A DNA stretch of 64,000 bases from Omnitrophica bacterium GWA2_41_15 (GCA_919902105.1 CAKKQO010000037.1:5598-69597); one strand, 5' to 3'; numbered from the stretch's first letter, positions 24,356 through 50,219 are shown. Numbers and translations are program-made. Notes: generated from the letters alone by a model not told the origin.

Positions 24356-24360
24356 TTTGC

Positions 24361-24405: not shown

Positions 24406-24407
24406 CA

Positions 24408-35851: not shown

Positions 35852-35853
35852 CC

Positions 35854-35882
35854 CCATGTAGACCTACGCGGTCTACATGGGT
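35854..35882. repeat. REP-like palindrome, copy 1: CCCATGTAGACC-tacgc-GGTCTACATGGG
   Basis: Perfect 12-bp stem with a 5-nt loop, immediately after the rpoN stop. Confidence 0.9.
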
Positions 35883-35900
35883 TGAACTCGATACAACTAA

Positions 35901-36356
35901 TTACGCAGATGTTGTGATGGGGTTACCGACAGAGATTTGACCGCCTTTTATAACCTTAGCAAAAATTCCTTCTTTAGGCATAATACAGGTGCCAATTTTT
36001 TTATAAGTCTCGCAGTAATTATGACATTCCTTGCCGATTTGGCTTACTTCTAAGATTATTGTATCCTTTATAATAAGCCTATCCCCTATCTTTAATTTCG
36101 CCAGATTTATGCCTTGGGTAGTAATGTTTTCGGCGAAATCGCCCGGTTTAAACTTAATTTCCTGCTTTTTAACTTTTGGGCAGTCCTGTTGTTGAGAGAT
36201 GCTTTCCCATGAGAGTAAACTAACTTGGCGGGTTTTATCTCCGGCGTGAACGTCCCCTTCTATGCCAAAATTTTCTATTAAATTAGCTGTTGGGATTTGA
36301 GTTTTAGGAAGCCCTTTTTTTGCGCTGATATTTATGGAAAACACCTTTTCCTTCAT
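35901..36356 (-). CDS. MOSC-domain protein
   Basis: A 151-aa YiiM-like MOSC beta-barrel protein adjacent to moaC. Confidence 0.6.
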   Translation of the reverse strand: MKEKVFSINISAKKGLPKTQIPTANLIENFGIEGDVHAGDKTRQVSLLSWESISQQQDCPKVKKQEIKFKPGDFAENITTQGINLAKLKIGDRLIIKDTIILEVSQIGKECHNYCETYKKIGTCIMPKEGIFAKVIKGGQISVGNPITTSA

Positions 36357-36381
36357 TTTTCATTTATTTTTGTTTTACCTT

Positions 36382-36404
36382 ATGTAGACCGCGTAGGTCT
36401 ACAG
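36382..36404. repeat. REP-like palindrome, copy 2 (inverted orientation, loop gcgta)
   Basis: tgtagaccgcgtaggtctaca. Confidence 0.9.
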
Positions 36405-36845
36405 GGGTCTGGTAAATTTTCCGCTTTTACCGCCTTCTTTTTCTAAGAGCTTTACTTCTATAGTCATATTTTTATCTAAATATTTGCACATATCATAGAC
36501 ATTTAGTGCGGCTATTGCTGCCGCGTTTAACGCCTCCATTTCAAAGCCGGTGCGTGCATTGCCTGAAACTTCGGATTTTATCAGAAGCGCGTCCTTCTTA
36601 AAGGAAAAAGAGATATCAATGTGGGAAAATTCTATTGGATGAGCGAGCAGGATTAAATCCCTGGTTTTTTTTGCCGCCTGTATGCCGGCAAGGGTTGAAA
36701 CTGCTAATGCATCTCCCTTTTTAATTTTACCTTGCATAATTAACTTTAAGGTTTCTTTTTGCATGGAAACCTTCGCCTCCGCCACCGCCCTGCGCTGTGT
36801 TTTCGGTTTATCTGATACATTCACCATTGCTATTTTTTTGTTCAT
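36399..36845 (-). CDS. moaC: Cyclic pyranopterin monophosphate synthase accessory protein
   Basis: MVNVSDK...ALAVSTLAGIQAAKKT...GFEMEALNAAAIAALNVYDMCK is typical of MoaC. Confidence 0.85.
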   Translation of the reverse strand: MNKKIAMVNVSDKPKTQRRAVAEAKVSMQKETLKLIMQGKIKKGDALAVSTLAGIQAAKKTRDLILLAHPIEFSHIDISFSFKKDALLIKSEVSGNARTGFEMEALNAAAIAALNVYDMCKYLDKNMTIEVKLLEKEGGKSGKFTRPL

Positions 36846-37750
36846 GAGAGCATCCCTTCTAAATTTTTACCTAGAATGTTCTGTTTATCTTCTTGGGAGA
36901 TTTTTAAATTCCTGACTGCGTTTATCGAGCCGGCAATATCTTTTTTTGCCGGCCAGTCGCTTCCCCAGAGGATATGCCCAGGCCCTAATAATTCTAAGGC
37001 GGCTTGGAAGTTTGTGTCTTTCGTGTCGCCGCTGGTATCCACATAGATATTCTTTAGATATTCGCCAGGATTGCCTTTTAAGTCTTTTACGAAATTTATG
37101 CCGCGAAGCATGCCATAAGTTGCCTCAAAACGGCCGGCTAAATGCGTAATTACTCCCCCGAAATAGGCAAAGATAAATTTAACGCCAGCAAATTCGCGTA
37201 ATATATCCGCCATTAAGAGTTTACCGATACAAATAGTAGTATCAAAGACGTATTCAATTACCGGCGTAAGCAATGGGTCTTTGACGCGCTCAAAACCGAT
37301 TGGGTTGATGATCTGGGAATGGACGAATACGGGAATATTCTTTTGCGCAGCTTCATTATAAACAGGTAAAAATAGAACATCATCTAAATATTTACCATTG
37401 TAACTACTGGCTAAAGAAATTGCCTTAAAGCCAAGTTTTTCGGTTGCGCGCTTAATTTCATCAAGTATATCCTGTCCATTGTCTATCGGCAGGATTGAGG
37501 CGCCGATAAATCGGCTAGGATAGCGTTTAATAATTTTTCCGACGTTATCGTTATAAATCCGCGCTACTTTACTGATGCTTCCTAATTTTAAATGCGCATC
37601 TGAGGTGGGATAACTTAAGACGGCCATATCAATGCCTGTCTCATCCATCATCTTAAGATGCGCTTCAATGTCCCCCCAGCCCTGATGAAAAAAATGGGCG
37701 TTATTGATAATATCTTGGGGTAACCAGTGGCTATGTGCGTCGATTATCAT
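36842..37750 (-). CDS. Amidohydrolase-2 family metal-dependent hydrolase (TIM barrel)
   Basis: The N-terminus MIIDAHSHW and C-terminus WGSDWP are typical of PF04909. Confidence 0.7.
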   Translation of the reverse strand: MIIDAHSHWLPQDIINNAHFFHQGWGDIEAHLKMMDETGIDMAVLSYPTSDAHLKLGSISKVARIYNDNVGKIIKRYPSRFIGASILPIDNGQDILDEIKRATEKLGFKAISLASSYNGKYLDDVLFLPVYNEAAQKNIPVFVHSQIINPIGFERVKDPLLTPVIEYVFDTTICIGKLLMADILREFAGVKFIFAYFGGVITHLAGRFEATYGMLRGINFVKDLKGNPGEYLKNIYVDTSGDTKDTNFQAALELLGPGHILWGSDWPAKKDIAGSINAVRNLKISQEDKQNILGKNLEGMLS

Positions 37751-38352
37751 ATTGTTAGTTCTGCTGTGTCAATATAAAGCGCGCCTTTTGCCTCAGCCAG
37801 CGGCTCAAATTGAAAACTTTTTACGGGAAAGTCTAATATGGCATTTGCATTGGCTGTCTGCGGCTGCCAGTCGCCTCTGGCAAAGAATTCGTTGAACGGA
37901 CAGCTTATTTGTTTCCAGCCGCTAAAATCATCGGTAATTATAAAACGCCACATTTCATTGCCGGAATCTTTAATATCGAAGGCAATTTTTGTTTTTGAGC
38001 CGCTGCCGTAGATATAAAAACTTATGGCGTTGTATTTTTTCCAGTCAATGCTTTCCGGAGTGAGGAGCCATGCAGAATTTTTAACGTCTAAACTGAATCC
38101 TTTGGCTATCCACATGTAACCGCCTGAAACTGCATCGTAAACTATTTTTAGTGATTGCGCGCCTGAATTTTTAATATTTGTATCGGCAGTTACTGCGACT
38201 GATGAGCCGTTGCCTGAGCCAAAGTCCACCGTGCCATTTTCTCCTCCGGAAATTTCACCTTCAAAATCTTCGATTAACAAACCTTTTTCCTGCGCAAAAC
38301 AAGGCATTGAGAATAAGAAAAACAGAATAAGAATAAGTTTTGTTATTTTCAT
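37747..38352 (-). CDS. Secreted protein with a putative carbohydrate-binding-module-like beta-sandwich
   Basis: Signal peptide MKITKLILILFFLFSMPCFA; the remainder is low in sequence complexity and tentatively CBM-like. Confidence 0.35.
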   Translation of the reverse strand: MKITKLILILFFLFSMPCFAQEKGLLIEDFEGEISGGENGTVDFGSGNGSSVAVTADTNIKNSGAQSLKIVYDAVSGGYMWIAKGFSLDVKNSAWLLTPESIDWKKYNAISFYIYGSGSKTKIAFDIKDSGNEMWRFIITDDFSGWKQISCPFNEFFARGDWQPQTANANAILDFPVKSFQFEPLAEAKGALYIDTAELTI

Positions 38353-38404
38353 TATTTTGCCCCCTGTTTTTAAAATTTTATTCTTTGAATTTTGCCATTT
38401 GTCA

Positions 38405-39178
38405 TTACTTCTCAGGATGCACCTGTTTAAACGGTATTACCGGCGCAGTCCACGGTGTCTGCTGATTTATTACTGCAATCTCTAACGGACAGACATTTGC
38501 CGGAACGGTTAAGGCAAATTTAACTGCGTTTTCAATTGCTTCGGTTGTCATCAGCCGAGAAGTATCGGCGGTTATTTCCTGCAATTTTCCCGTTAAATCC
38601 GTATCGGTTACGCCGGGAAGAATCGATGTTATTTTTATCCCGCGGTCACGCATTTCCCAGAATAAGCCTTTAGAAAATGCCCTTAGTCCTACTTTAAGCG
38701 AGCTATAAACCAGAAAATTTCTCGGTAACGGGTCACATAAAGTTGAGCCGGAGACCAGATTGATAATCGCACCGCTTTTGTTGTTAATCATATCGTTTAT
38801 GACGAGACGTATCAGGCGCACATATCCGAGATAATTAGTATGCGCTAATTTTTCGAAATCTTCAAGCGGTTGTTTTTCAAAAGGATACTGGCTGGATACG
38901 CCGGCATTATTAATCAAGATGTCAATTTTACCGAATTTGTCTTTAGTTTTATTAATCAGATTTTCCAAATCTTCTAATTTGGTTACATCGCAAGGCACAG
39001 CTAAAACCCCTACTTTGTATTTTTGGGCGATTTCATCCGCCGTTTCTTCCAACGGCCCTTCGGCTCGCGCAGCAATGCTTAAGTTTATGCCTAAGCTTGC
39101 GCAGGTTTTGGCAATGGCTTTGCCTATGCCGCGGCTGGCGCCGGTTATAATTGCCGTTTTTCCTTTTAAGTCAGGCAT
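38405..39178 (-). CDS. SDR-family oxidoreductase (FabG-like ketoreductase)
   Basis: TGASRGIGKAIA, NNAG and the YSSLK (YxxxK) motifs. Confidence 0.85.
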   Translation of the reverse strand: MPDLKGKTAIITGASRGIGKAIAKTCASLGINLSIAARAEGPLEETADEIAQKYKVGVLAVPCDVTKLEDLENLINKTKDKFGKIDILINNAGVSSQYPFEKQPLEDFEKLAHTNYLGYVRLIRLVINDMINNKSGAIINLVSGSTLCDPLPRNFLVYSSLKVGLRAFSKGLFWEMRDRGIKITSILPGVTDTDLTGKLQEITADTSRLMTTEAIENAVKFALTVPANVCPLEIAVINQQTPWTAPVIPFKQVHPEK

Positions 39179-39188
39179 TTATCCTCCT

Positions 39189-39641
39189 TTAGGCATTAAT
39201 TTTCTCACTTGCTTCCTTTTCGATAATTTCTTTAAAAATTTTTAGGTTTTCTTTAGAATGTTTGTTAATGAAGCCCTCTACCTGCTCGTCATTGAATTTG
39301 GCTTTTGTATCCATTTCAAAGTGTTGTATCCATATTAGCTCGATGCCCTCCGCTTTGTGAGTGTAGAGCCAGATAATTTTCATATATTTAAAGGGGAATT
39401 TTGGCTCTTCCCGTTCGGCATAGGCAAAAAATTTATCTTTAAAAAGCAGCCGCCATGACTGCCAGGATTTTCCTTCATCATCAGTCAGGCGGAAAGTTAT
39501 TTTATTGCCTTCTTTTTTCACGACTTCTGCTTTTTGGTATTCTGTACCAAATAGCTCTGTCCAGCGTAGTATATCATTGGAAATATCAAAAACTTTATCG
39601 TACGGCGCGTTAATGATTATAGAATTACAAGTATGTCCCAT
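39189..39641 (-). CDS. SRPBCC / polyketide cyclase-dehydrase-like protein
   Basis: A 150-aa protein of the Polyketide_cyc2-like fold; tentative. Confidence 0.45.
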   Translation of the reverse strand: MGHTCNSIIINAPYDKVFDISNDILRWTELFGTEYQKAEVVKKEGNKITFRLTDDEGKSWQSWRLLFKDKFFAYAEREEPKFPFKYMKIIWLYTHKAEGIELIWIQHFEMDTKAKFNDEQVEGFINKHSKENLKIFKEIIEKEASEKINA

Positions 39642-39698
39642 AATTCCTCCCTTCGGTCGGAAAGTTTACAGTTAATAATGAACAGTTTACAGAAAAAA

Positions 39699-40013
39699 TC
39701 ATTTACCAGAAAGGCTTAAAAGTATTGCTAAGTTCTCATTCGCGCTTAGTGAGTGTGGCGCGTTTTTCGGCATAAAAATAAATATACCCGGTTTCATTTT
39801 GATCTTTTTGCCGTTTAATACAAATGTTCCCTTCCCTTTTAAAACCGTAACCGCGGCTTCTCTGGTTGAAGTATGCTCGGAAATATCGCTGCCTTTAGCT
39901 AAACACATTAGCGTATGATTAGAAATATCCGTCTTAACCAAAACCTTACTAAAAATGCCCTGTTTGGGGAATTCCATCATCTGCTCTAAATTTTCTATTG
40001 CTGATTTAACCAT
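39699..40013 (-). CDS. Cupin-domain protein
   Basis: GKGTFVLNGKKIKMKPGIFIFMPKNAPHSL matches the cupin motif pair. Confidence 0.6.
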   Translation of the reverse strand: MVKSAIENLEQMMEFPKQGIFSKVLVKTDISNHTLMCLAKGSDISEHTSTREAAVTVLKGKGTFVLNGKKIKMKPGIFIFMPKNAPHSLSANENLAILLSLSGK

Positions 40014-40023
40014 AAATTACCTC

Positions 40024-40818
40024 TTATGTTATAATTGCCGCTACTCTTGCCCAAGCAGCACCAGTTTTTCTGATTTTCACCGGAAGGCAATGGATTTTAA
40101 AGCCGTAATCGGGTAACTTGTCCAAATTGGCTAACCTCTCAATATGAATAAATTCCCTAATTCTGCCGTAAAAATGCGCCGGGTATAAAGGTTTCTTTTG
40201 TTCTAAGAACTCTTTAAGCATAAACCTGTAGGGCCTATCTATTCCCATCGTATCTACGCCGAAAATTTTTATTCCATGGTCTAAGAGATAATCTATTGCC
40301 GAAATATCCACTCCCGGATAATCCGAGAAGTATTTTGGTCCACCGTATAGCTTATCCGCTCCAGTGGCTAAAAGAACGATATTGAAAGGCTTAAGCTGGT
40401 AGTTAATTTTTGAAAGGGCGGATTTGATATCGCTGTTGGTGATAACTTCATTCGGTTTTTTGTGCTTAAGGTCAATTTTTACGCCGTTCTGTATGCAATA
40501 TTCTAAGGGAATTTCTTCGGCGGTTTTTGCGGCGCGCCCTTCTGATTTTGAGCCGTAGTGGTAGGAGTAGTCAAGGTGCGTGCCAATATGTACCGGCGAA
40601 TGCACCGTTTCTAACGATAAAAATTCTTCATCGGGCAAGTCTTCTTTTCTGATGATGCGCATACCGAGAGCATATTTTATCTTACCCAGCAGGGTTTTCC
40701 CCATCATCACGCGATTAAACTTTTCCACCCCCGCCGCGTGGTTTACGCGTTCAATCTCAACCTTATGCACTTCAAATGCCGTATCATCAATCGGCAAACT
40801 CAAATCAATTATTTTCAT
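40024..40818 (-). CDS. Cyclase-family protein (kynurenine-formamidase-like, PF04199)
   Basis: HIGTHLD matches the HxGTHxD motif. Confidence 0.7.
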   Translation of the reverse strand: MKIIDLSLPIDDTAFEVHKVEIERVNHAAGVEKFNRVMMGKTLLGKIKYALGMRIIRKEDLPDEEFLSLETVHSPVHIGTHLDYSYHYGSKSEGRAAKTAEEIPLEYCIQNGVKIDLKHKKPNEVITNSDIKSALSKINYQLKPFNIVLLATGADKLYGGPKYFSDYPGVDISAIDYLLDHGIKIFGVDTMGIDRPYRFMLKEFLEQKKPLYPAHFYGRIREFIHIERLANLDKLPDYGFKIHCLPVKIRKTGAAWARVAAIIT

Positions 40819-40829
40819 CTCATCTAACC

Positions 40830-40852
40830 ATGTAGACCGCGTAGGTCTACAT
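40830..40852. repeat. REP-like palindrome, copy 3 (loop gcgta), downstream flank of the RAYT gene
   Basis: atgtagaccgcgtaggtctacat. Confidence 0.9.
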
Positions 40853-40857
40853 AAGGT

Positions 40858-41523
40858 TTATTCTATAAACAAGTCTTTAATTCGCGTTAATTCTCTTTGG
40901 TATGAAATTCTATCCTCTGTAAATTTTTTATAATTTCCCGGCAGAACATTGATATGGCTATTAAAATGACAGTATCTTGGCGTTTCTTCAATGCCTAAGT
41001 ATTCTCTATACGAGGAGTACCGCCATAATTCAGGCTTATCTACTAAAAAAGCAGTTACAGGATTTAAATGTATGTACCGACTTAAATGAAGAAGTTGCTC
41101 TTCGTTCTCTACGAGTTTACTTTTAAATCGGCTTTCCCAGAGAGGTCCTTTACGCTTATGTTTTGTATTGAAATAACGTGTATAGCTATTGAGAATATTA
41201 TTTACAGAACGCGAAATTCCATTATCTTCTAATTGTTTAAAAATTAAATGAATATGGGTTGGCATTATGCAATATGCGATTATATCTACGATCTTGGCTT
41301 TTTGGCGAAGATAATCGCCAAGAACTATATTTATATCAGAATTGTTTGTTTCGTTCAACTCAAGAAAGCGCGCCAGGCATGAGGAGTGTTTGCCTATCAT
41401 GTAATATCTCACTGTTGTTAGGATTCTTTGATATTCCCAGTTGGTGTTAAATATGGTGAATCCGGCTATGCTCTTATTAAAGATATGATAAATTTCGCCC
41501 GTAACTAATGGATGTTGTCTCAT
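40858..41523 (-). CDS. REP-associated tyrosine transposase (RAYT; IS200/IS605 TnpA-like Y1 HUH enzyme)
   Basis: The HUH motif is present as IMPTHIHLIF and the catalytic Tyr motif as YIHLNPV. The gene is flanked by inverted REP copies 3 and 4. Confidence 0.8.
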   Translation of the reverse strand: MRQHPLVTGEIYHIFNKSIAGFTIFNTNWEYQRILTTVRYYMIGKHSSCLARFLELNETNNSDINIVLGDYLRQKAKIVDIIAYCIMPTHIHLIFKQLEDNGISRSVNNILNSYTRYFNTKHKRKGPLWESRFKSKLVENEEQLLHLSRYIHLNPVTAFLVDKPELWRYSSYREYLGIEETPRYCHFNSHINVLPGNYKKFTEDRISYQRELTRIKDLFIE

Positions 41524-41531
41524 TACCGTTT

Positions 41532-41554
41532 ATGTAGACCTACGCGGTCTACAT
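41532..41554. repeat. REP-like palindrome, copy 4 (loop tacgc), upstream flank of the RAYT gene
   Basis: atgtagacctacgcggtctacat. Confidence 0.9.
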
Positions 41555-41556
41555 GG

Positions 41557-41790
41557 TTAGAATTTGGAAGTGATGATTTTTTCAATATCGTTTACAGTAC
41601 TGAATTTAGTGATTTCTTTGGCGCTGAATTTTGTGCTAAATGCCTTCTCAAGGGCAATTACTGCCTCAACCATTTCCGTTGAATCAACGCCGATGCTATC
41701 TTGCAAAGAAACCTCGTCTTTTAATTCTTCAGGTTTAATCTTTAGCAATTTAACCAATGTATCCTTAATTTTAGTTTTTGTTTCCATTTT
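41557..41790 (-). CDS. Acyl carrier protein
   Basis: LQDSIGVDSTEMVEAVIALEKAF carries the Ser of the DS phosphopantetheine-attachment motif. The start is taken at METKTK, not at the longer ORF-track start. Confidence 0.75.
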   Translation of the reverse strand, partial: KMETKTKIKDTLVKLLKIKPEELKDEVSLQDSIGVDSTEMVEAVIALEKAFSTKFSAKEITKFSTVNDIEKIITSKF

Positions 41791-41803
41791 TTTCTCCCTG
41801 AAT

Positions 41804-43264: not shown

Positions 43265-43279
43265 TCTAACCCCTTCCTT

Positions 43280-44512
43280 TTAAGGTTTTTCAACAATTAA
43301 AACCGCGTTTATCCCGCCTCTTCCGCGGGAGATAATCAGTGCTTTATTTATTTTATATTCCCTTGCTTGGTTGGCGACATAATTTAAGCCGTTAGGGTTC
43401 GGATTTTCTAAGTTTATCGTCGGCGGAATTAAGCCGTTCTCCATTGCCAATACGGTGATAATTGTATCCAAAGCGCCAGATGCCCCTAATAAATTTCCGA
43501 ACATTGATTTGGGACAGCTAACTGGAATATCTTTGGTATTATTGCCGAACACTTCTTTTATCGCCGTAACTTCGCTATTATCCCATAAGTCTAGCGCTAA
43601 TCCGTCTAAACTGATAAAATCTATCTCTTCGGGGTTAGTTTTTGCGCGTTCTAATACTAATCTTATTGCTCTAGCTAATTGTTTGCCGTAAGTGTCAGGA
43701 TTGATTCGGTTTGCCCCATCGCAGGTTGAGGCATAACCGGAAATTGTTGCCATGATATTGGCGCCTCTTTTTTGGGCGCGCTCCACACTTTCTAAAACCA
43801 TAATCCCCGCGCCTTCTGCGATGACAAAGCCGGATTTATCTTTATCAAACGGACGATAGGCGGTTTCCGGATGTTCATTATCTTCTGAAAGTCCGCCGTA
43901 AGTATTGCAACAAAGTAACGCATAAGGCGTAACCGGCGCCTCCATCCCTCCGGCTAAAATCATATTTAGTTTTCCTTTTTGCAATGTTTTGTTAGCATAA
44001 CCGATTGCCTCAAGAGAGCTGGCGCGGTCAGCAACCACTGTTTTTGAAAATCCCTTTATGCCGTAATATATGGAAACTTGTCCTTGGGGCGCGGCCGGAA
44101 ACCAGGCAGATGCCATATAGGGAGAAACACCTTGGCGTCCTTCTATATACATATCGCGCAATTCCGTTTCGGCATAGAGCCAGCCGCCAAGAGCATTGCC
44201 GAGGAAAATGCCTATGAGATTCGGGTCTTCGTTTCTAATCTCTATACCGGCATCTTGCAGGGCAAGTTCTGAAGCGATCAGCGCCATATGGGAAAAGGCA
44301 TCAATTTTTTTTAAGAGCCGTTCTGGGATGTGGGAATATTTTTCCAGTTCATCAATTTGCCCGGCGATGTGCGATGGATATTTTGAAGCGTCAAAGCGGG
44401 TAATTTCTTTAATAAAAGACCTGCCGGATTTAACATTCGCCCAAAACTGGCGCTTTCCTATTCCGCTGGGCGCAACTACTCCCACACCTGTAACTGCAAT
44501 TTTGTCTAGCAT
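43280..44512 (-). CDS. Beta-ketoacyl-synthase-like protein lacking the catalytic Cys/His/His triad (chain-length-factor-like partner)
   Basis: The thiolase fold is present, but ADRASS replaces the A-C-SS active-site motif, and the two His motifs read SLDGLALD and GNLLGASG. Confidence 0.7.
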   Translation of the reverse strand: MLDKIAVTGVGVVAPSGIGKRQFWANVKSGRSFIKEITRFDASKYPSHIAGQIDELEKYSHIPERLLKKIDAFSHMALIASELALQDAGIEIRNEDPNLIGIFLGNALGGWLYAETELRDMYIEGRQGVSPYMASAWFPAAPQGQVSIYYGIKGFSKTVVADRASSLEAIGYANKTLQKGKLNMILAGGMEAPVTPYALLCCNTYGGLSEDNEHPETAYRPFDKDKSGFVIAEGAGIMVLESVERAQKRGANIMATISGYASTCDGANRINPDTYGKQLARAIRLVLERAKTNPEEIDFISLDGLALDLWDNSEVTAIKEVFGNNTKDIPVSCPKSMFGNLLGASGALDTIITVLAMENGLIPPTINLENPNPNGLNYVANQAREYKINKALIISRGRGGINAVLIVEKP

Positions 44513-44520
44513 CTATTTTA

Positions 44521-44549
44521 ACCATGTAGACCTACGCGGTCTACATGGT
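44521..44549. repeat. REP-like palindrome, copy 5 (perfect 12-bp stem) between the two KS genes
   Basis: accatgtagacctacgcggtctacatggt. Confidence 0.9.
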
Positions 44550-45811
44550 TATCCTTTGAATCGTTTCATAATTAACGATGAGTGGATTCCAGAAAATCCG
44601 CTTGAGGTTTTTAAAATCGTATTCACTTTTTTTTCGCGCGCTTTATTGGGGATATAATCCAAGTCGCATAAATGGTCTTTTCCTTCCTGATTTATTGTCG
44701 GCGGTAAAATATTTTTTTCAAAAATCATACAACCCGCCGTTAGTTCTATGGCGTTTGCCGCGGCCAAGGGATGGCCGATCATTGATTTAAGCGAGCTAAT
44801 CGGCAATTTATAGGCATAGTCGCCAAAGACCATTTTGTAAGCACTGGTTTCAAAGATGTCGTTCATTCGGGTAGATGAGCCGTGGGCATTTATGTAATCG
44901 ATATCTTGCGGCTTAATTTCAGCGTCTTTAAGCGCAAGACTAATACAATTTGCCATCGCTGTTCCGTCAGCCGGTAAGTCCGTCATGTGATATGCATTAC
45001 AGCTTGTGCCAAAACCGATGACCTCGGCATAGATATGGGCATTGCGTTTTAAGGCATGGTTTAATTCTTCTAAAACTAAAATGCCTGCCCCTTCAGAAAG
45101 CACAAATCCGTCACGCTTATTGTCAAATGGCCGGCTGGCTTTTTCCGGACAGTCGTTACGCACAGATAAGACGTTTACTACGTCAAAGGCGCCGAAAGTT
45201 ATCGGCGTAATCGGTGCCTCTGCCGCGCCTGCTATTATAATATCCGCCTCACCGTCTTGAATTACTTCAAGGGCATATCCTAAAGAATCAGTTCCGGCAG
45301 TGCATCCGGTAGAAATAGTGTTGCAAATTCCCTTTAGGCCGTAGCGGCTTGAGATTTCAATAGACGGTGTATTAAACATAGAGGCATCGTAGAGGTCAGG
45401 CCGAACTTTAGATGGGTCAATCGGCTCTTTTCCGTCGTTAGTCACTAAGGCAAATTCCTCTTCCATATATTTTGTGCCGCAGATGGCATTGGCTAAACTA
45501 ACGCCGATCACTTCAGGATTTTCTTTGGAGAAATTTAGTTTTGAGCCCTCTATTGCTATCTTGGCCGCACAGACTGCAAACTGCACATACCTATCCATAC
45601 GCATAACTTCATCATGCGTCAGGCCAAATTTAAAGGGGTTAAAATCGCGGACTTCCGCGGCGATTTTTGTGTTAAAAATAGAAACGTCAAAGCCGTCAAC
45701 TAGCTTTACCCCGGATTTTCCCGAGATAAATGCCTGATAGGCATTGTCTTTGCCGATGCCGTTAGGCGAAATAACGCCGATACCGGTTATGACGACGCGG
45801 CGTTTTAACAT
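44549..45811 (-). CDS. Beta-ketoacyl synthase (KS-alpha/FabF-like, catalytically competent)
   Basis: Active-site Cys in ISTGCTAGTDS, and the two His motifs NAHGSSTRMND and KSMIGHPLAAANA. Confidence 0.8.
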   Translation of the reverse strand: MLKRRVVITGIGVISPNGIGKDNAYQAFISGKSGVKLVDGFDVSIFNTKIAAEVRDFNPFKFGLTHDEVMRMDRYVQFAVCAAKIAIEGSKLNFSKENPEVIGVSLANAICGTKYMEEEFALVTNDGKEPIDPSKVRPDLYDASMFNTPSIEISSRYGLKGICNTISTGCTAGTDSLGYALEVIQDGEADIIIAGAAEAPITPITFGAFDVVNVLSVRNDCPEKASRPFDNKRDGFVLSEGAGILVLEELNHALKRNAHIYAEVIGFGTSCNAYHMTDLPADGTAMANCISLALKDAEIKPQDIDYINAHGSSTRMNDIFETSAYKMVFGDYAYKLPISSLKSMIGHPLAAANAIELTAGCMIFEKNILPPTINQEGKDHLCDLDYIPNKAREKKVNTILKTSSGFSGIHSSLIMKRFKG

Positions 45812-45814
45812 ATT

Positions 45815-46408
45815 TTATTTCTCCTCCTGCTCTATCCCGCTTACCTTAAACACAATCTTTCCTCCATCCGGACAAGTCACAGTATCAATAGCATCGGGTT
45901 CTTTCATAAACCAAAACTTTCCGCCAAAGTTTAAAGCAAATAATGCAGGAAAGGCGGTATGGAATGCCGCTCCGCAAAACCCGGGTATGCATTTTAGCCC
46001 GGTGGTTTCCCATTTATCGCCTACCTTATAACCAAAGCTGCATTTCCCTTCTGCCTTTACTACCTCAATGACCATCTTCTTTGGTTGAGGGCCCTTATAA
46101 TTAGGGTCTTTGGGAATAAATTCAACTTTCCCTTCCTTATTTAAGATTTCTACCTTAAACTCTAATTTCCCGCCATCTGGACAGGTAATCAGCAATGAAC
46201 GTTGGTTCTCCATAAAAGGAAATTTTGCACCCCAACTTAAGGCATAAATCACCGGGAATAATACATGCGCTAAGCCCAAACAGAAGAACTCGGGCGGATG
46301 GGTAAAATCCTCTAAAATCAGTTCATCGCCAATTTTATAGCCGTGATAGCAATGGCCTTCAACTTTATTGACCGTAAGTTTTAATTTAGGAAAAGGAGTA
46401 TCGATCAT
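45815..46408 (-). CDS. Cys-rich hypothetical protein built of two tandem repeats of about 95 aa, each ending in TCPDGGK
   Basis: Repeat 1 reads VEGHCYHGYKIGDE...ITCPDGGKLEFKV and repeat 2 reads AEGKCSFGYKVGDK...VTCPDGGKIVFKV. ATGA overlap with the upstream PanE-like gene. Confidence 0.4.
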   Translation of the reverse strand: MIDTPFPKLKLTVNKVEGHCYHGYKIGDELILEDFTHPPEFFCLGLAHVLFPVIYALSWGAKFPFMENQRSLLITCPDGGKLEFKVEILNKEGKVEFIPKDPNYKGPQPKKMVIEVVKAEGKCSFGYKVGDKWETTGLKCIPGFCGAAFHTAFPALFALNFGGKFWFMKEPDAIDTVTCPDGGKIVFKVSGIEQEEK

Positions 46409-47400
46409 TTAGTCACGGCCTCAATTAATTCCTCTTTACTCAAAAATTTTCCGGTTTTCTCCACCTGATGCACCATTTCAACTAGTTTTTCGTTTAGGGG
46501 TGCCTTGAGATTATTTTTCTTAGCTAGATTCACAAACTCGCCGTTGATGTAGTCTATCTCAGATGTGCGATTTCTTTTAATACTTTGTAATATAGAGCCG
46601 TAAAGCGGCTGGCGGCTTAGATTAAACATAATATTAGAAAAAATCTTCGCCGCTTCATCACGCGGCATATTTGCAAGCGCCACATATCGTCTAATGTCGA
46701 ATTCCGGTAGCGACACCGGCTGAATTCCGCATTTTTCTATGATATTAAAGGTTTCTTTAAGCAGTTGAATGCTTATCGCCGCCATCTCTACCTCTTTAAA
46801 AGTCTCTTGCATGCTGAGGCCTACGACAGCGGGGATGCAGTTATTTAAGTTGATAAATAACTTTGTCCATTTCATCCCCTTTATGTGTTCAGAAACACTA
46901 ACTTTAAAAGTGCTACTTAAGGATTGCTCTACCTCTTTTAATTTATCGTCAATTTTTCCGTCTAACCGACCAATAATGCAGCCACCTTCAAAGTTATGGG
47001 TGATATGGCCGTAATCCAAATAAGTTGAGCCGAACATTACGATGCTGGAAATAATATCCGCGCCTTTAGCTGACTTGGCGACAATTTCATCAGCGCGTAT
47101 CCCGTTTTGCGTAGTTAAAATTATGCTATTTACTAAAAATGTTTCGTTTTGTGAAATTGCTTCTTCTATGTCTTGCGTTTTGACCGCTAATATTACTAAA
47201 TCCGCGGGTGTATCCATTTGCGCGCGCGCGTTTATTTTTACTGATAATTTGCCGCGTACGCCTTCAATCTTTAAACCATTTTTATTGATAAATTCGGCCT
47301 GTTCTTTTTTAGCGACTAAGATGACGTCTGCACCCTTATCCTTTAGATACGCCGCGACTAATCCGCCGATTGCCCCTGCGCCAATGACTGCTATTCTCAT
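46405..47400 (-). CDS. Ketopantoate-reductase-family (PanE/ApbA) NAD(P)-dependent oxidoreductase
   Basis: MRIAVIGAGAIGG Rossmann N-terminus with an ApbA_C-like C-terminus. Confidence 0.7.
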   Translation of the reverse strand: MRIAVIGAGAIGGLVAAYLKDKGADVILVAKKEQAEFINKNGLKIEGVRGKLSVKINARAQMDTPADLVILAVKTQDIEEAISQNETFLVNSIILTTQNGIRADEIVAKSAKGADIISSIVMFGSTYLDYGHITHNFEGGCIIGRLDGKIDDKLKEVEQSLSSTFKVSVSEHIKGMKWTKLFINLNNCIPAVVGLSMQETFKEVEMAAISIQLLKETFNIIEKCGIQPVSLPEFDIRRYVALANMPRDEAAKIFSNIMFNLSRQPLYGSILQSIKRNRTSEIDYINGEFVNLAKKNNLKAPLNEKLVEMVHQVEKTGKFLSKEELIEAVTK

Positions 47401-47672
47401 TTTGGGTATCCGTATTTTTTATAGTCAAACCCGCTTTTTTCTAACAAGCGCACCATCATGCTATAAAATGGCGATGGCACGTCCGAGAAAAAGGCGGAAA
47501 TTACGTCTTGTTCTCCTACTTCTCCGGCGTTACGCCTAAAGGCATTTTCCTCCGCCTTTTTAGTGACAACGCTTTCGGTAATCCGACGGTGAAAGACCGG
47601 AATTTTCGCGATCATTTCTTTAAATTTTTGCTGAGTCTCACTATCCCAGTTCATTTTATATTTTTTACGCAA
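47397..47672 (-). CDS. Small PCP_red-like domain protein (protochlorophyllide-reductase 57-kDa subunit C-terminal-like, PF08369)
   Basis: MNWDSETQQKFKEMIAKIPVFHRRITESVVTKKAEENAFRRNAGEVGEQDV fits the W..EA...L..IP.F.R pattern. Confidence 0.4.
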   Translation of the reverse strand: MRKKYKMNWDSETQQKFKEMIAKIPVFHRRITESVVTKKAEENAFRRNAGEVGEQDVISAFFSDVPSPFYSMMVRLLEKSGFDYKKYGYPK

Positions 47673-49200
47673 ACCACGACGTAACCAAAGATTTACCTGT
47701 AGGGTTTAAGTCAATATTTACGTGTTTGGTTTGAGTGTATTCTAAGAGACCTTCTTTGCCAAGTTCGCGGCCAAAACCACTTTCTTTGTATCCCCCAAAA
47801 GGCGCTTCGTTATAAAAACCGCCATAGGTATTTATCCAGACGGTTCCACAGCGCAGTTGCTGTGCTACTTGATTGGCGCGGGTTAGGTCCTTGGTCCAGA
47901 CCATCGCGGCTAAGCCAAAGCGTGTATTATTTGCGATTTTAACCGCTTCATCTTGTCCGGAAAATTTAATAATTGATAGCACCGGCCCGAATATTTCCTC
48001 TTGCGCAATACGCGCGTTATTATCCACATCCGTAAATATCGTTGGCTCCAAATAAAACCCATTTTCCAAACCATGTAGACCTACGCGGTCTACATCGGGG
48101 ATGGTGCCGCCAGAGATGAGTTTGGCTTCATGTTTACCGATTTCGATATAATTTAAAACGTTTTGCCGATGCTCAGCTGAAATTAATGGACCAAAGTCGG
48201 TGTCGTAAGATGCGGCATTACCGATTTTTAACTTTTTAGTTTTTGTAACCAATAAATCAATAAATTTATCGTATATTTTATCTTCAAGTATTAATCGTGA
48301 GCCGGCGGTGCACATCTGCCCTTGATTCATAAAGATTGCCGACATTGAACCGCCAACTGCCGCCTCTATATCGCAGTCGGCAAATACAATATTTGGGCTT
48401 TTGCCGCCCAATTCAAGAGAGAGTTTTTTGGTGTTGCCTGATGCCATTTTCATTATTTCTTTTCCCGCGGTATTTCCCCCGGTAAAAGAGACCATATCTA
48501 CGAGTTTACTCTCACAGATTGTTTTACCTACCTCATTAGCGGTTCCGGTAATAATATTCACTACGCCTTTGGGTAAGCCAGCCTCTTGTATTATTTTGGC
48601 TAATTCTAAGCAGCTTAATGAAGCAAGTTGTGAGGGTTTAAAAACTATCGTGTTTCCCAAAATAATTGCCGGTGCTATTTTCCAAGCCGCCATTAAAAAC
48701 GGATAATTCCAAGGGATAATCTGGCCGATAACGCCTATTGGCTCGCGAAATGTAAAACTTAGCGCCGGATTATGTATAGGTATGGTTTCGCCTTTAACCG
48801 CAGATGCCGCAGCTGCAAAATACTCAAAGGCCGATGCGGCTGTCGGGATATCAATAAAAGTGGTTTGTTTTATAGTTTTTCCGGTGTCTTGCGATTCCAA
48901 CTTGGCTAATTCCGCTGCTTCTTCCCTTATAATCTGGGCAATTTTTTGTAGATAGGGCGCGCGTTCAATAATCTGCATTTTAGGCCAGTCGCCGCTATCA
49001 AAGGCGAATCTAGCGGCTTTAATCGCTTTTTCTGTATCTTTAGCGTCTGCGGCAGGAAATTCCGCCAATGTTTCTCCAATAGAAGGATTAATACTGGCAA
49101 TAGTATTTTTATTACCGGCTTCTACAAATTCGCCATTAATATACGTTTGATATTTTTTCATTTTTTTCTCGCTACTCACTTCGTGGGTGCTAGTTTCCAC
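47665..49200 (-). CDS. NAD(P)+-dependent aldehyde dehydrogenase
   Basis: ELGGKSP, catalytic Cys in QGQMCTAGSRL, and EEIFGPV. The loop TIPDVDRVGLHGLEN is encoded by REP copy 6. Confidence 0.85.
   Translation of the reverse strand: METSTHEVSSEKKMKKYQTYINGEFVEAGNKNTIASINPSIGETLAEFPAADAKDTEKAIKAARFAFDSGDWPKMQIIERAPYLQKIAQIIREEAAELAKLESQDTGKTIKQTTFIDIPTAASAFEYFAAAASAVKGETIPIHNPALSFTFREPIGVIGQIIPWNYPFLMAAWKIAPAIILGNTIVFKPSQLASLSCLELAKIIQEAGLPKGVVNIITGTANEVGKTICESKLVDMVSFTGGNTAGKEIMKMASGNTKKLSLELGGKSPNIVFADCDIEAAVGGSMSAIFMNQGQMCTAGSRLILEDKIYDKFIDLLVTKTKKLKIGNAASYDTDFGPLISAEHRQNVLNYIEIGKHEAKLISGGTIPDVDRVGLHGLENGFYLEPTIFTDVDNNARIAQEEIFGPVLSIIKFSGQDEAVKIANNTRFGLAAMVWTKDLTRANQVAQQLRCGTVWINTYGGFYNEAPFGGYKESGFGRELGKEGLLEYTQTKHVNIDLNPTGKSLVTSWFA
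48073..48095. repeat. REP-like palindrome, copy 6, lying inside the aldehyde dehydrogenase CDS in frame and encoding DVDRVGLH
   Basis: atgtagacctacgcggtctacat within ORF 47665-49200. Confidence 0.85.
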
Positions 49201-50168
49201 AAATCAAAGATGCGGTTAAACGGGGCATACCAGCGGGATAGTTTTGCCATATCGCCTTTTAGTTTAAGCTTGTGTTGTGTTGCCGCAGCAAAAGGGTCAA
49301 GTTTTCTCTCGAAAACCAAGCGCCAGACAGCCGCAGGCCCCGAGATAACAAATTCCGCGTCTTCATCGTTGGTTACTTCTTCAATTTTTCCTTTATTAAA
49401 GTGAAAATTATAAACTTTATTTTCTTCATCAACCCTTATTGCTAATTTCGTGGTTAAATTAAGCGCCTCTCCCTTTTCTTTTGCTTCCTTATCCTCATTA
49501 ACCAGAGAAACAATTTTATTAATATGATCTTTTGAAAATAAATCGTATTTTTTGACCGTATCAACCGCGTAGGTTGATATTGGTTTTAGGTTAGAAAATG
49601 TTGCGGGAGCGTTTCTCAGGGTAAGGTTTACTTTGCAGGCTTCTTCTAACATTTCAAGCCATGAGAATGCCTCTTTGAAAGATGACCCGACTGAGACAAT
49701 GCCGTGTTTTTTTAAGACAACGATATTGCTTAAGCTTAATGCATCTAAAACAGGTAAAACATTGGTTACAATCGGGCCACCCTGCTCAATTACCGGGATG
49801 TTAGACAGATAAAGACGCGCTTCGTAGCTGAATATATCTAATGTGTTAAATTTAGCATAAAAGGCAGTAGTAAAGTTTGGGTGGGCATGGATAATGGCAT
49901 TAATCCCCTCTTTTTCATAAGCCGCCAAATGCATTGCTAATTCTGATGTGGGTTTTAAGTTAGTTCCAGAAACAGGTTTACCTTTCTTATCAACGATTAT
50001 GATTTCCTCTTCGCTTAAATAACCCAGATAAGCATTATGCGCGGTGACTAAAAACTTATCCTTATCCAGGCGTAGAGAAATATTGCCGCAGGGGCCGCTG
50101 ACAAAAGAGCGGTTATGCAGTTCTTTCGCCCAGAATACTATTTCTTTACGTTCTCTTGCATATAACAT
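49176..50168 (-). CDS. Class II aldolase/adducin-family protein fused to a C-terminal SCP2 sterol-carrier domain
   Basis: Aldolase_II-type N-terminus (HAHP, GIVSVG) and a C-terminus ISGPAAVWRLVFERKLDPFAAATQHKLKLKGDMAKL that looks SCP2-like. Confidence 0.6.
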   Translation of the reverse strand: MLYARERKEIVFWAKELHNRSFVSGPCGNISLRLDKDKFLVTAHNAYLGYLSEEEIIIVDKKGKPVSGTNLKPTSELAMHLAAYEKEGINAIIHAHPNFTTAFYAKFNTLDIFSYEARLYLSNIPVIEQGGPIVTNVLPVLDALSLSNIVVLKKHGIVSVGSSFKEAFSWLEMLEEACKVNLTLRNAPATFSNLKPISTYAVDTVKKYDLFSKDHINKIVSLVNEDKEAKEKGEALNLTTKLAIRVDEENKVYNFHFNKGKIEEVTNDEDAEFVISGPAAVWRLVFERKLDPFAAATQHKLKLKGDMAKLSRWYAPFNRIFDLWKLAPTK

Positions 50169-50177
50169 TATATTTAC

Positions 50178-50204
50178 CCCATGTAGACCTACGCGGTCTA
50201 CATG
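50178..50204. repeat. REP-like palindrome, copy 7
   Basis: ccatgtagacctacgcggtctacatgg. Confidence 0.9.
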
Positions 50205-50219
50205 GTTAGCTATTTATCC

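What the first reader, a model, noticed from the sequence alone, without database searches (positions are those of the whole stretch)
35854..50204. REP/RAYT system: seven copies of CCATGTAGACC-tacgc-GGTCTACATGG, with two inverted copies flanking a RAYT gene
A 23-29 nt perfect palindrome recurs seven times in 15 kb (35854, 36382, 40830, 41532, 44521, 48073 and 50178). Five copies have the loop tacgc and two have gcgta. The Y1 HUH transposase at 40858-41523 is flanked by one copy of each orientation, which is the canonical REPIN/RAYT arrangement. The copies sit at gene boundaries throughout the biosynthetic cluster, where they may act as terminators or recombination sites.
Basis: partly seen in the sequence, partly recalled or inferred. 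Interest (0 to 1): 0.6.

Follow-up and report, generated by a model that had tools for sequence, protein, structure and literature searches.

The report
REP hairpins and RAYT in Omnitrophota operon
A short DNA hairpin is copied seven times around a single domesticated transposase gene inside a conserved biosynthetic operon of an uncultured Omnitrophota bacterium; this is a known kind of system (REP/RAYT), unusual here because two copies sit in frame inside enzyme genes and are translated.

Summary
Seven exact copies of GTAGACC-TACGC/GCGTA-GGTCTAC lie at 35853-50205 and none elsewhere in the 64 kb (0.01 expected by chance). ORF 40858-41523(-) is a Y1 HUH transposase: H90/H92/Y150 are invariant in homologues, and its best sequence and fold match is E. 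coli TnpA_REP (4er8). It has a hairpin within 10 nt of each end.

The gene holds the same slot (ACP | RAYT | cyclase) in at least five other Omnitrophota genomes, always flanked by hairpins of the form ACC-5 nt-GGT. One relative (JAPLLY01) carries 82 exact copies, mostly inverted doublets (REPINs). So REP/RAYT is supported.

Corrections:
- The window has no doublets.
- Copy 48073-48095 is not at a gene boundary. It lies in frame inside an aldehyde dehydrogenase and encodes VDRVGLH.
- An eighth, variant hairpin (49559-49579) lies in frame in an aldolase-SCP2 linker.
- Relatives show empty sites, a flipped loop and a different compensated stem at the same codons, which indicates turnover.
- Flanking orientation is not conserved across relatives.
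- Only one copy looks like a terminator.
- The copy number in the source genome could not be measured.

Verdict: a new member of a known kind, with unusual intragenic behaviour.

The parts
40858..41523 (-). RAYT-type Y1 HUH transposase gene (221 aa). HUH = H90-I-H92; catalytic Tyr = Y150 in RYIHLNP.
   Evidence: Pfam Y1_Tnp, 1.3e-10. NCBIfam REP_Tyr_transpos, 70.5 bits, below the cutoff of 80. The only PDB sequence hit is 4er8 TnpA_REP. AF2 model has pLDDT 90.4 and its best Foldseek hit is 4er8 at 7e-8, against 2e-4 for IS608 TnpA. H90, H92 and Y150 are invariant in 71 homologues.
41532..41554 (.). REP copy upstream of the RAYT, lying between the ACP stop (41557) and the RAYT start (41523). 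Loop is TACGC on the + strand, GCGTA on the operon strand.
   Evidence: Present at the orthologous site in PCWA01 (1 mismatch) and as a doublet in JAPLLY01.
40830..40852 (.). REP copy downstream of the RAYT, lying between the RAYT stop (40858) and the cyclase start (40818). Loop is GCGTA on the + strand.
   Evidence: Orthologous copies occur in PCWA01 and JAPLLY01.
35853..35881 (.). REP copy (29-nt palindrome) between the convergent 3' ends of rpoN (+, ends 35851) and the MOSC gene (-, ends 35901). It is the only copy with a terminator-like tail in the sense direction, and it sits at a synteny breakpoint relative to PCWA01.
   Evidence: PCWA01 has cysD/cysN at this position; their homologues lie at about window 22695-25208.
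36383..36403 (.). REP copy between MoaC and MOSC. It supplies MoaC's TAG stop codon (36399-36401).
   Evidence: Shared with PCWA01 (L046 16028).
44519..44551 (.). REP copy (33-nt palindrome TAACCATGTAGACC-N5-GGTCTACATGGTTA) between the two ketosynthase genes.
   Evidence: The site is empty in PCWA01, where the two genes overlap. In L055 and L057 it is occupied by different stem variants.
48073..48095 (.). REP copy in frame inside the aldehyde dehydrogenase gene. It encodes VDRVGLH in a surface-loop position.
47665..49200 (-). Aldehyde dehydrogenase gene that hosts the in-frame REP.
   Evidence: Full-length match to betaine aldehyde dehydrogenases, E = 1.9e-134. Homologues with and without the insert are compared.
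49559..49579 (.). Variant REP-like hairpin TATCAACC-gcgta-GGTTGATA, in frame in the linker of the aldolase_II-SCP2 gene (49176-50168, -).
   Evidence: The orthologous codons in L053, L046 and L055 carry hairpins with different, still fully paired stems.
50179..50205 (.). REP copy between the 143-aa gene (stop at 50220) and the aldolase_II-SCP2 start (50168).
   Evidence: Identical copy in L053. The site is empty, with overlapping genes, in PCWA01 and L055. L057 carries a different variant.

Best explanation
This is a REP/RAYT system of an uncultured Omnitrophota bacterium.

A single Y1 HUH tyrosine transposase gene (RAYT) has been inherited at a fixed slot between the acyl-carrier-protein gene and a cyclase gene of a conserved biosynthetic operon. 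It is bracketed by its cognate hairpin. The unit is about 27-33 nt: TAACC-AT-GTAGACC-[5-nt loop]-GGTCTAC-AT-GGTTA.

By analogy with E. coli TnpA_REP and the IS200/IS605 transposases, the enzyme should bind the hairpin once it extrudes in single-stranded DNA. It should then cut and rejoin single strands through a 5'-phosphotyrosine intermediate, which seeds copies of the hairpin elsewhere.

In this lineage the hairpin population is small and sits close to the RAYT. Six copies lie in very short intercistronic gaps. One 27-nt copy, and one older variant, landed in frame in tolerant loop or linker codons of two enzymes and are translated.

Shown: the repeat, the enzyme family, fold and catalytic residues, conserved synteny, presence/absence and sequence turnover at orthologous sites, and genome-wide dispersal as REPIN doublets in a relative.

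Inferred: that this RAYT is the enzyme that moves the hairpins, that the clustering reflects action near its own gene, and any effect on operon mRNA.
For: - Repeat: 7 exact copies against 0.01 expected, clustered with P = 6e-4. The ssDNA hairpins fold at -9 to -14.7 kcal/mol, z = -4.4 to -9.8.
- Enzyme: Y1_Tnp. REP_Tyr_transpos is the best NCBIfam hit. 4er8 TnpA_REP is the only PDB sequence hit and the best fold hit, 7e-8 against 2e-4 for IS608/ISDra2. H90, H92 and Y150 are invariant.
- Fixed locus: the RAYT lies between the PP-binding and Cyclase genes in PCWA01 (67% aa), JAPLLY01 (73%), L055 (55%) and WOR_2 genomes (57%). These RAYTs fall in one 18-of-117 clade of an NJ tree.
- Hairpin class follows the protein family: RAYT homologues in Scalindua rubra and in another contig, in unrelated gene contexts, are flanked by AACC..CCCACC-tcgta/gcgta-GGTGGG..GGTT hairpins.
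- Dispersal: JAPLLY01 holds 82 exact 19-mers on many contigs, 35 of them exact inverted doublets that fold at -25.4 kcal/mol.
- Mobility and turnover: the KS|KS and 143aa|aldolase junctions are empty, with overlapping genes, in PCWA01/L055. At the ALDH site there is a clean 27-nt gap in L055, an exact loop reverse-complement in L053, and a different stem with only compensatory changes in L054: 8 of 19 differences in a gene 86.5% identical, P = 0.002.
Against: - The NCBIfam score (70.5) is below the curated cutoff (80), so the protein is not an equivalog of the characterised RAYTs.
- The window has no REPIN doublets.
- Copy number is low where it could be counted in the nearest singlet-type genome: PCWA01 has 6 exact copies. 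That is close to the 16-mer background Bertels et al. 2017 report for housekeeping genes (PMC5581495).
- The source genome itself could not be retrieved, so genome-wide over-representation is untested for it.
- Flanking orientation is not conserved. In WOR_2 it is direct, as in IS200/IS605 ends.
- No biochemical link between this protein and these hairpins exists.
- The RAYT is far more diverged than its neighbours, and not in step with them: 55% against 84-91% for L055, and 73% against 75-85% for JAPLLY01. Simple vertical descent does not explain this.
Confidence: 0.85

Rival explanations
1. The hairpins are host regulatory elements of this operon, conserved for their own sake and unrelated to the transposase. 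They could be mRNA stabilisers or processing sites, attenuators or terminators, or a protein operator.
For: Six of seven copies lie in intercistronic gaps of one co-directional operon. Several positions are shared between species. Stems at orthologous sites differ but stay fully paired, which looks like structural selection. The copy at the operon end resembles a terminator.
Against: The identical 19-mer occurs 82 times on many contigs in unrelated contexts in JAPLLY01. The same hairpin class flanks RAYT homologues in other phyla and other gene contexts. Junction sites are empty in close relatives whose genes simply overlap. Two copies lie inside coding sequence. Five of seven have no T tract in the sense direction. 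Rfam finds nothing. A secondary, co-opted RNA role is not excluded.
Confidence: 0.08
2. The unit hairpin-transposase-hairpin (about 730 bp) is an IS200-like insertion sequence that inserted into the operon. The other palindromes are solo ends or MITE derivatives mobilised by an ordinary IS transposase.
For: The unit is the size of IS200. The protein belongs to Pfam Y1_Tnp, 'Transposase IS200 like'. In WOR_2 genomes the two flanking hairpins are in direct orientation, as IS200/IS605 ends are. The fold also matches IS608/ISDra2 TnpA at about 2e-4.
Against: The gene keeps the same slot across genomes whose neighbouring proteins are only 74-91% identical. Only one copy was found in 274 kb of JAPLLY01 sequence and one per locus elsewhere. 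The best sequence and fold match is TnpA_REP, not IS200/IS608 TnpA. In a relative the short hairpins, not the gene, are what multiplied.
Confidence: 0.06
3. The repeats are chance palindromes, assembly artefacts, or integron-like attC cassette boundaries.
For: The copies sit at gene boundaries in a co-directional array, which superficially resembles a cassette array.
Against: Shuffles expect 0.01 matches. Independent assemblies from NCBI, ENA, JGI and Logan carry the same elements at the same sites. Gene order is conserved across species rather than shuffled, and no integrase appeared among the called genes of the syntenic loci or the ten window proteins scanned. The elements are 21-33 nt, far shorter than attC sites; that size comparison rests on general knowledge.
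Confidence: 0.01

Closest known systems
REP/REPIN-RAYT systems of Gammaproteobacteria (E. coli TnpA_REP/yafM with REPs; Pseudomonas fluorescens RAYTs with REPINs)
   Same: - A single Y1 HUH transposase with the HUH and Tyr motifs, whose closest structure is 4er8.
- The gene is flanked by short palindromic repeats that also occur elsewhere.
- The gene stays at a fixed locus across species.
- Repeat sequence and RAYT co-vary between lineages.
- In one relative the repeat forms inverted doublets (REPINs) in high copy number.
   Different: - The protein scores below NCBIfam's RAYT cutoff and is longer (221 aa against 165).
- The hairpin is a perfect palindrome, so only the 5-nt loop defines orientation, and that orientation is evolutionarily labile.
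- GTAG lies within the stem and at the loop-stem junction, not 5' of the hairpin.
- The window holds only singlets, in low copy number, packed around the RAYT.
- The RAYT sits inside an operon rather than in its own extragenic space.
- Two copies are intragenic and translated.
- The host phylum is Omnitrophota.
IS200/IS605-family insertion sequences (IS200, IS608, ISDra2)
   Same: The same transposase superfamily and fold. Subterminal hairpins flank the gene. The unit is about 0.7 kb. The presumed chemistry is on single-stranded DNA.
   Different: There is no sign that the gene itself moves: it holds a fixed syntenic slot, and only one copy was seen. In the window the flanking hairpins are identical to each other and inverted, not distinct left and right ends. 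The hairpin alone is what multiplies.
Rickettsia palindromic elements (RPEs) inserted in frame in protein-coding genes
   Same: Palindromic repeat copies sit in frame inside functional enzyme genes at positions that tolerate extra residues, and they are translated (PMC10969869).
   Different: RPEs are about 100-150 bp, encode a conserved peptide, and have no associated RAYT. Here the insert is 27 nt (9 codons), and most copies are intergenic.

Membership tests
REP/RAYT (REPIN-RAYT) system | Y1 HUH transposase with an intact HUH motif and catalytic tyrosine | tested here: met
   H90-I-H92 and Y150 (RYIHLNP) align to the HUH and Tyr of 4er8 and are invariant in 71 aligned homologues (at least 97% conserved in 121).
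REP/RAYT (REPIN-RAYT) system | Protein closer to RAYTs than to IS200/IS605 TnpA | tested here: inconclusive
   The only PDB sequence hit is TnpA_REP, and the best fold hit is 4er8 at 7e-8 against 2e-4 for IS608. However, NCBIfam REP_Tyr_transpos scores 70.5 bits, below the cutoff of 80. No reference set for the RAYT groups of Bertels 2017 was available for placement.
REP/RAYT (REPIN-RAYT) system | RAYT gene immediately flanked by copies of the repeat | tested here: met
   Copies end 8 nt upstream and 5 nt downstream of the ORF. The same holds in PCWA01, JAPLLY01, L055, WOR_2, Scalindua rubra and L060.
REP/RAYT (REPIN-RAYT) system | Flanking repeats in inverted orientation | tested here: inconclusive
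   Met in the window and PCWA01 (-/+) and in L055 (+/-). WOR_2 is +/+, and Scalindua and L060 are -/-. Only the loop defines orientation, and the loop flips at an orthologous site.
REP/RAYT (REPIN-RAYT) system | Flanking repeat over-represented across the genome | not testable with these tools
   The source genome could not be retrieved and is not in the species-representative set. The window has 7 copies against 0.01 expected. Among relatives, JAPLLY01 has 82 and PCWA01 only 6.
REP/RAYT (REPIN-RAYT) system | Repeats organised as inverted doublets (REPINs) | tested here: not met
   None of the 7 window copies is paired, even allowing 4 mismatches. The feature is met in JAPLLY01, which has 35 exact doublets with a 6-7 nt spacer.
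REP/RAYT (REPIN-RAYT) system | RAYT single-copy, vertically inherited, at a fixed locus | tested here: met
   The same ACP|RAYT|cyclase slot is used in at least 5 other genomes. The syntenic RAYTs fall in one NJ clade. One copy was found in 274 kb of JAPLLY01. Whole-genome copy number was not testable, and the RAYT's divergence is out of step with its neighbours.
REP/RAYT (REPIN-RAYT) system | Repeats extragenic | tested here: not met
   Six of seven copies are extragenic. 48073-48095 and the variant at 49559-49579 are in frame inside ORFs, and 36383-36403 supplies MoaC's stop codon.
IS200/IS605 insertion sequence | The element, transposase included, is present in multiple copies or at variable positions | tested here: not met
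   The syntenic position is fixed across genomes, and there was a single tblastn hit per genome in the held loci.
IS200/IS605 insertion sequence | Distinct left and right subterminal hairpins on the same strand | tested here: not met
   The window's flanking hairpins have identical stems and inverted loops. The WOR_2 relative does have direct orientation.
Intrinsic (rho-independent) terminator | GC-rich hairpin followed by a T/U tract in the direction of transcription | tested here: not met
   Only 35853-35881 qualifies on the operon strand. 40830-40852 qualifies only antisense. The other five lack a T tract.
Rickettsia palindromic element-like intragenic repeats | Palindromic element of about 100-150 bp that encodes a conserved peptide and is inserted in frame in many genes | tested here: not met
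   The insert is 27 nt, shown by the clean gap in L055. Only 2 of 8 copies are intragenic. The resemblance is in behaviour only (for the RPE description).

The most novel reading that the evidence does not exclude
The hairpins inside the two enzyme genes, and those at the operon junctions, are not passive relics. They are repeatedly rewritten in place to match the genome's current RAYT specificity, through loop inversion, replacement by another hairpin type, or precise 27-nt loss or gain. In this reading the RAYT, co-transcribed from inside the operon, continually edits a small local set of sites, including translated ones. The hairpin-encoded peptides and the intercistronic structures could then be under host-level selection. 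That would make this an operon-embedded, partly translated REP population, unlike the dispersed extragenic populations described so far.
Probability: 0.3. Interest if true: 0.65.

Novelty: new member of a known kind. Interest (0 to 1): 0.45.

Why it matters
REP/RAYT systems have been studied almost only in Gammaproteobacteria, as large populations of extragenic repeats. This locus shows the same partnership in Omnitrophota, an uncultured phylum, with related RAYT-plus-hairpin pairs in Scalindua and other lineages.

It offers a compact natural series. The same few sites are empty, occupied, loop-flipped or occupied by a different compensated stem in genomes whose neighbouring proteins are 74-94% identical. 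That makes insertion unit size (27 nt), site preference (directly after TAA stop codons, or in tolerant protein loops) and RAYT-hairpin co-evolution directly readable from sequence.

The in-frame copies are a small, clear case of a mobile hairpin adding residues to working enzymes. For annotation, the gene should be labelled a REP-associated tyrosine transposase, not an active IS.

Tried and rejected
- Retrieving the source genome for a genome-wide count failed. Neither the exact RAYT nor its 100%-identical database entry P0001 is in the contig index. The species-representative genome scan did not contain the source. A metagenome scan with the window-type 25-mer returned only 4 loci, from samples already linked to PCWA01- and WOR_2-like genomes.
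- I tested whether perfect conservation of the REP inside ALDH between the window and PCWA01 shows constraint. It does not on its own: the genes are 81% identical, and identical runs of 19-26 nt occur elsewhere in the gene.
- I considered that the RAYT might be a functional, cluster-specific component. Homologues of similar identity in Scalindua rubra and another contig sit in unrelated contexts, so this was rejected.
- I considered that different RAYT lineages repeatedly replaced one another at the slot. The NJ tree puts the syntenic RAYTs in one 18-of-117 clade, so this is not supported. The rate incongruence remains unexplained, and the tree has no support values.
- The terminator role was rejected for 6 of 7 copies.
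- No known RNA family was found in the region or the window apart from four tRNAs.
- Integron attC, chance and artefact readings were rejected.
- Assignment to RAYT Groups 1-5 of Bertels et al. 2017 was not possible without their reference sequences.

Full report
**1. The observation**

An exact search finds the 19-nt core GTAGACC-N5-GGTCTAC at 35858, 36384, 40832, 41534, 44526, 48075 and 50183. With up to three mismatches the only other hit in the 64-kb window is an unrelated one at 29155. Shuffles expect 0.01 matches to the 11-mer arm.

- On the + strand, five copies have the loop TACGC and two (36384, 40832) have GCGTA.
- The perfect palindromes run from 21 to 33 nt. The longest is TAACCATGTAGACC-TACGC-GGTCTACATGGTTA at 44519-44551.
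- As single-stranded DNA the copies fold at -9 to -14.7 kcal/mol, with z-scores of -4.4 to -9.8.
- All seven lie within 14.3 kb. For seven uniformly placed points, P = 6e-4.

**2. The gene between two copies**

ORF 40858-41523(-) encodes 221 aa.

- It matches Pfam Y1_Tnp at 1.3e-10.
- Its best NCBIfam model is REP_Tyr_transpos, but at 70.5 bits it is below the curated cutoff of 80.
- The only solved structure found by sequence is E. coli TnpA_REP, 4er8. The HUH (H90-I-H92) and the Tyr motif (R-Y150-IHLNP) align with it.
- H90, H92 and Y150 are invariant in 71 aligned homologues.
- An AlphaFold2 model (pLDDT 90.4) matches 4er8 best by Foldseek, at 7e-8. IS608 and ISDra2 TnpA follow at about 2e-4.

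The protein is therefore a RAYT-like Y1 HUH enzyme, although not an NCBI equivalog. More than 4,800 database proteins match it, mostly unnamed or labelled 'transposase'. The sources that name them give Omnitrophota, Patescibacteria, Berkelbacteria and Scalindua.

**3. Gene context**

Pfam scans, together with precomputed annotations of syntenic loci, show a co-directional minus-strand operon. In order it encodes: AMP-binding, PNP_UDP_1, IF-2B, a 143-aa protein, aldolase_II-SCP2, aldehyde dehydrogenase, a small DUF2621-like protein, ApbA, a 197-aa protein, two ketosynthases, a B12-binding radical SAM enzyme, ACP, the RAYT, cyclase (PF04199), cupin, an SRPBCC polyketide-cyclase-like protein, SDR, CBM_11, amidohydrolase_2, MoaC and MOSC. 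The operon converges on rpoN.

Six hairpin copies fill very short gaps between these genes. One of them supplies MoaC's stop codon. The gaps on either side of the RAYT (33 and 39 nt) consist almost entirely of hairpin.

**4. Where else the palindrome occurs**

A scan of one genome from each of 185,579 species finds the exact 19-mer in only five genomes, all Omnitrophota MAGs.

| Genome | Exact 19-mers | Arrangement |
|---|---|---|
| JAPLLY01 | 82, on many contigs | 35 exact inverted doublets with a 6-7 nt spacer; they fold as one long hairpin at -25.4 kcal/mol |
| PCWA01 | 6 | singlets |
| JAZDEW01 | 2 | singlets |
| MHGF01 | 1 | singlet |
| JAZDED01 | 1 | singlet |

(Counts.) The JAPLLY01 doublets are REPINs in the sense of Bertels and Rainey.

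The window's own genome is not in that set and could not be fetched. A metagenome scan with the 25-mer gave four loci.

**5. The RAYT is a fixed resident of the operon**

The RAYT occupies the slot between ACP and cyclase in each of these genomes:

| Genome | RAYT aa identity to the window |
|---|---|
| JAPLLY01 | 73% |
| PCWA01 | 67% |
| L055 (519-kb ENA contig) | 55% |
| Omnitrophica WOR_2 genomes | 57% |

- In each genome it is flanked by hairpins.
- In an NJ tree of 117 family members these syntenic RAYTs fall in one clade of 18. Homologues from Scalindua rubra and from another contig (L060), which sit in unrelated gene neighbourhoods, fall outside it.
- Those outside homologues are nevertheless flanked by hairpins of the same design: AACC..CCCACC-tcgta/gcgta-GGTGGG..GGTT.

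Across all these loci the hairpin keeps an apical ACC-[5-nt loop]-GGT and outer AACC/GGTT feet. The lower stem differs:

- GTAG/CTAC in the window, PCWA01 and JAPLLY01
- TTCC/GGAA in L055
- CGC/GCG in WOR_2
- CCC/GGG in Scalindua

This is the RAYT-repeat co-variation expected of REP/RAYT systems.

**6. Orientation is not a stable feature**

Read in the RAYT's direction, the upstream/downstream loops are:

- -/+ in the window and PCWA01
- (+-)/+ in JAPLLY01
- +/- in L055
- +/+ in WOR_2
- -/- in Scalindua and L060

. Because the stems are perfect palindromes, only the loop defines orientation. The window does show the 'canonical inverted' arrangement, but the arrangement is not diagnostic here.

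**7. One copy is inside a gene and is translated**

Copy 48073-48095 lies in frame in the aldehyde dehydrogenase gene, 47665-49200(-). The sequence GAT GTA GAC CGC GTA GGT CTA CAT GGT encodes D-VDRVGLH-G. The enzyme is otherwise a full-length match to betaine aldehyde dehydrogenases (E = 1.9e-134), which have a shorter loop at this point.

Among 120 homologues, only the closest ones (80-93% identity) show extra residues there. Almost all of the more distant ones lack them.

The DNA of the relatives shows the history:

| Relative | State at the ALDH site |
|---|---|
| PCWA01 | The same hairpin in the same frame |
| L053 | The same stem, with the loop exactly reverse-complemented (VDLRGLH) |
| L054 (86.5% nt identity over the gene) | TGTGCACC-cccgc-GGTGCACA (VHPRGAH): 8 differences in the 19-mer (binomial P = 0.002), every stem change compensated |
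| L055 | A clean 27-nt gap, the empty site |
| L057 | A degenerate, expanded version |

The inserted unit is therefore 27 nt, the length of CCATGTAGACC-N5-GGTCTACATGG. The site has seen insertion or loss, loop inversion, and replacement by another hairpin type.

I checked whether the identity between the window and PCWA01 at this site is remarkable in itself. It is not: equally long identical runs occur elsewhere in the gene.

**8. An eighth, variant hairpin**

TATCAACC-gcgta-GGTTGATA at 49559-49579 lies in frame in the linker between the aldolase_II and SCP2 domains of ORF 49176-50168(-). The orthologous codons carry these hairpins, each fully paired:

- GTGTCAACC-cccgc-GGTTGACAC in L053
- TTCCACC-cccgc-GGTGGAA in PCWA01
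- CGTCTCAGCC-cccgg-GGCTGAGACG in L055

The L057 copy is interrupted, and the WOR_2 linker has no hairpin.

**9. Junction sites are polymorphic too**

- The KS|KS junction (44519-44551) is empty in PCWA01, where stop and start overlap. In L055 and L057 it holds different stem variants.
- The 143aa|aldolase junction (50179-50205) is identical in L053, empty with overlapping genes in PCWA01 and L055, and holds another variant in L057.
- Occupied junctions begin directly after the upstream TAA stop, as TAA|CC.
- The copy at 35853-35881 lies where PCWA01 has cysD/cysN. Their homologues are about 10 kb away in the window. That is one association with a rearrangement, not a demonstration of recombination.

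**10. Function of the copies**

Only 35853-35881, at the end of the operon, has a terminator-like T tail in the sense direction. 40830-40852 has one only antisense. Rfam finds nothing in the region.

An effect on mRNA stability, or on RAYT translation, is possible: the upstream hairpin ends 8 nt before the RAYT ATG. This was not tested.

**11. Mechanism**

From established knowledge of TnpA_REP and the IS200/IS605 transposases, these enzymes bind hairpins in single-stranded DNA and cut and join strands through a 5'-phosphotyrosine. The most likely account is that the RAYT mobilises the 27-33-nt hairpin unit. Insertions then survive only where they do no harm: intercistronic gaps, an ALDH surface loop and an interdomain linker. 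In this lineage the population has stayed small and close to the RAYT, whereas in JAPLLY01 it expanded as REPIN doublets.

The link between enzyme and repeat is inferred from association, co-variation and homology. It has not been demonstrated.

**12. What remains unexplained**

The RAYT is much more diverged than its neighbours, and out of step with them.

| Compared genome | Neighbouring proteins (aa identity) | RAYT (aa identity) | Hairpin type relative to the window |
|---|---|---|---|
| L055 | 84-91% | 55% | different |
| JAPLLY01 | 75-85% | 73% | same |

. Either the RAYT evolved faster when the hairpin type switched, or the RAYT-hairpin module was exchanged at this locus. The unsupported NJ tree cannot separate these.

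**13. Comparison and verdict**

The system works like, and largely qualifies as, a REP/RAYT system. The literature read here (PMC5581495; bioRxiv 10.1101/2021.07.10.451892) describes RAYTs as single-copy and vertically inherited, sitting in a constant extragenic space, flanked by over-represented repeats that are usually REPINs.

This locus differs in several ways:

- The protein scores below the curated cutoff.
- The hairpin is a perfect palindrome.
- The window has only singlets.
- Copy number appears low.
- The RAYT is embedded in an operon.
- Two copies are translated. This behaviour is otherwise best known from Rickettsia palindromic elements, which are unrelated in size and machinery (PMC10969869).

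I rate it a new member of a known kind with unusual features. Interest is moderate.

Noticed in passing
L001-L045 (JAPLLY01 loci), e.g. L014 6760-6930: In JAPLLY01 the REP doublet sits at the centre of a longer element of about 125 nt. The element has its own outer inverted repeats, GGGGACGGTTCTATTTTT ... AAAAATAGAACCGTCCCC, and conserved asymmetric inner flanks. The expanded unit there is therefore a composite, MITE-like element rather than a bare REPIN.
   Followed up: partly
window 35901-53876 (minus strand): The biosynthetic operon is conserved in at least six Omnitrophota genomes. It includes two ketosynthases, a B12-binding radical SAM enzyme, ACP, a cyclase, an SRPBCC cyclase-like protein, SDR, ApbA and ALDH, plus methionine-salvage-like genes (PNP_UDP_1, IF-2B, aldolase_II-SCP2) and an AMP-binding enzyme. 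Its product is unknown.
   Followed up: no
window 22695-25208 versus L046 16505-18568: cysD/cysN-like genes (PAPS_reduct and GTP_EFTU domains) lie between MOSC and rpoN in PCWA01. In the window their homologues lie about 10 kb away, on the far side of rpoN. The REP at 35853-35881 occupies the vacated junction.
   Followed up: partly
window 55796-55942: Three strong hairpins (stems of 13, 12 and 8 bp) lie within 150 nt, between tRNA-Thr (56006-56081) and tRNA-Tyr (55615-55699) on the minus strand. They are unrelated in sequence to the REP, although the first has an ACC-N5-GGT apex.
   Followed up: no
L049 5406-5495 and 11841-12483: In the WOR_2 relative the KS|KS spacer holds a different palindrome, ACCGTGTACCG-ttcaccgtaa-CGGTACACGGT. 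A nucleotidyltransferase/HepT-like toxin-antitoxin pair is inserted in the operon after the cupin gene.
   Followed up: no
window 40858-41523 versus L055 17767-18429 and L023 3427-4089: RAYT divergence is out of step with its neighbours. Against L055 the RAYT is 55% identical where neighbours are 84-91%. Against JAPLLY01 it is 73% where neighbours are 75-85%. RAYT similarity tracks hairpin type rather than host relatedness.
   Followed up: partly
L023 1-120 (JAPLLY01): Upstream of the second ketosynthase, JAPLLY01 has G-rich repeated motifs (cccctctccttgtgggaggggttaggggaggggag ...) in place of the first ketosynthase and the REP found in the window.
   Followed up: no
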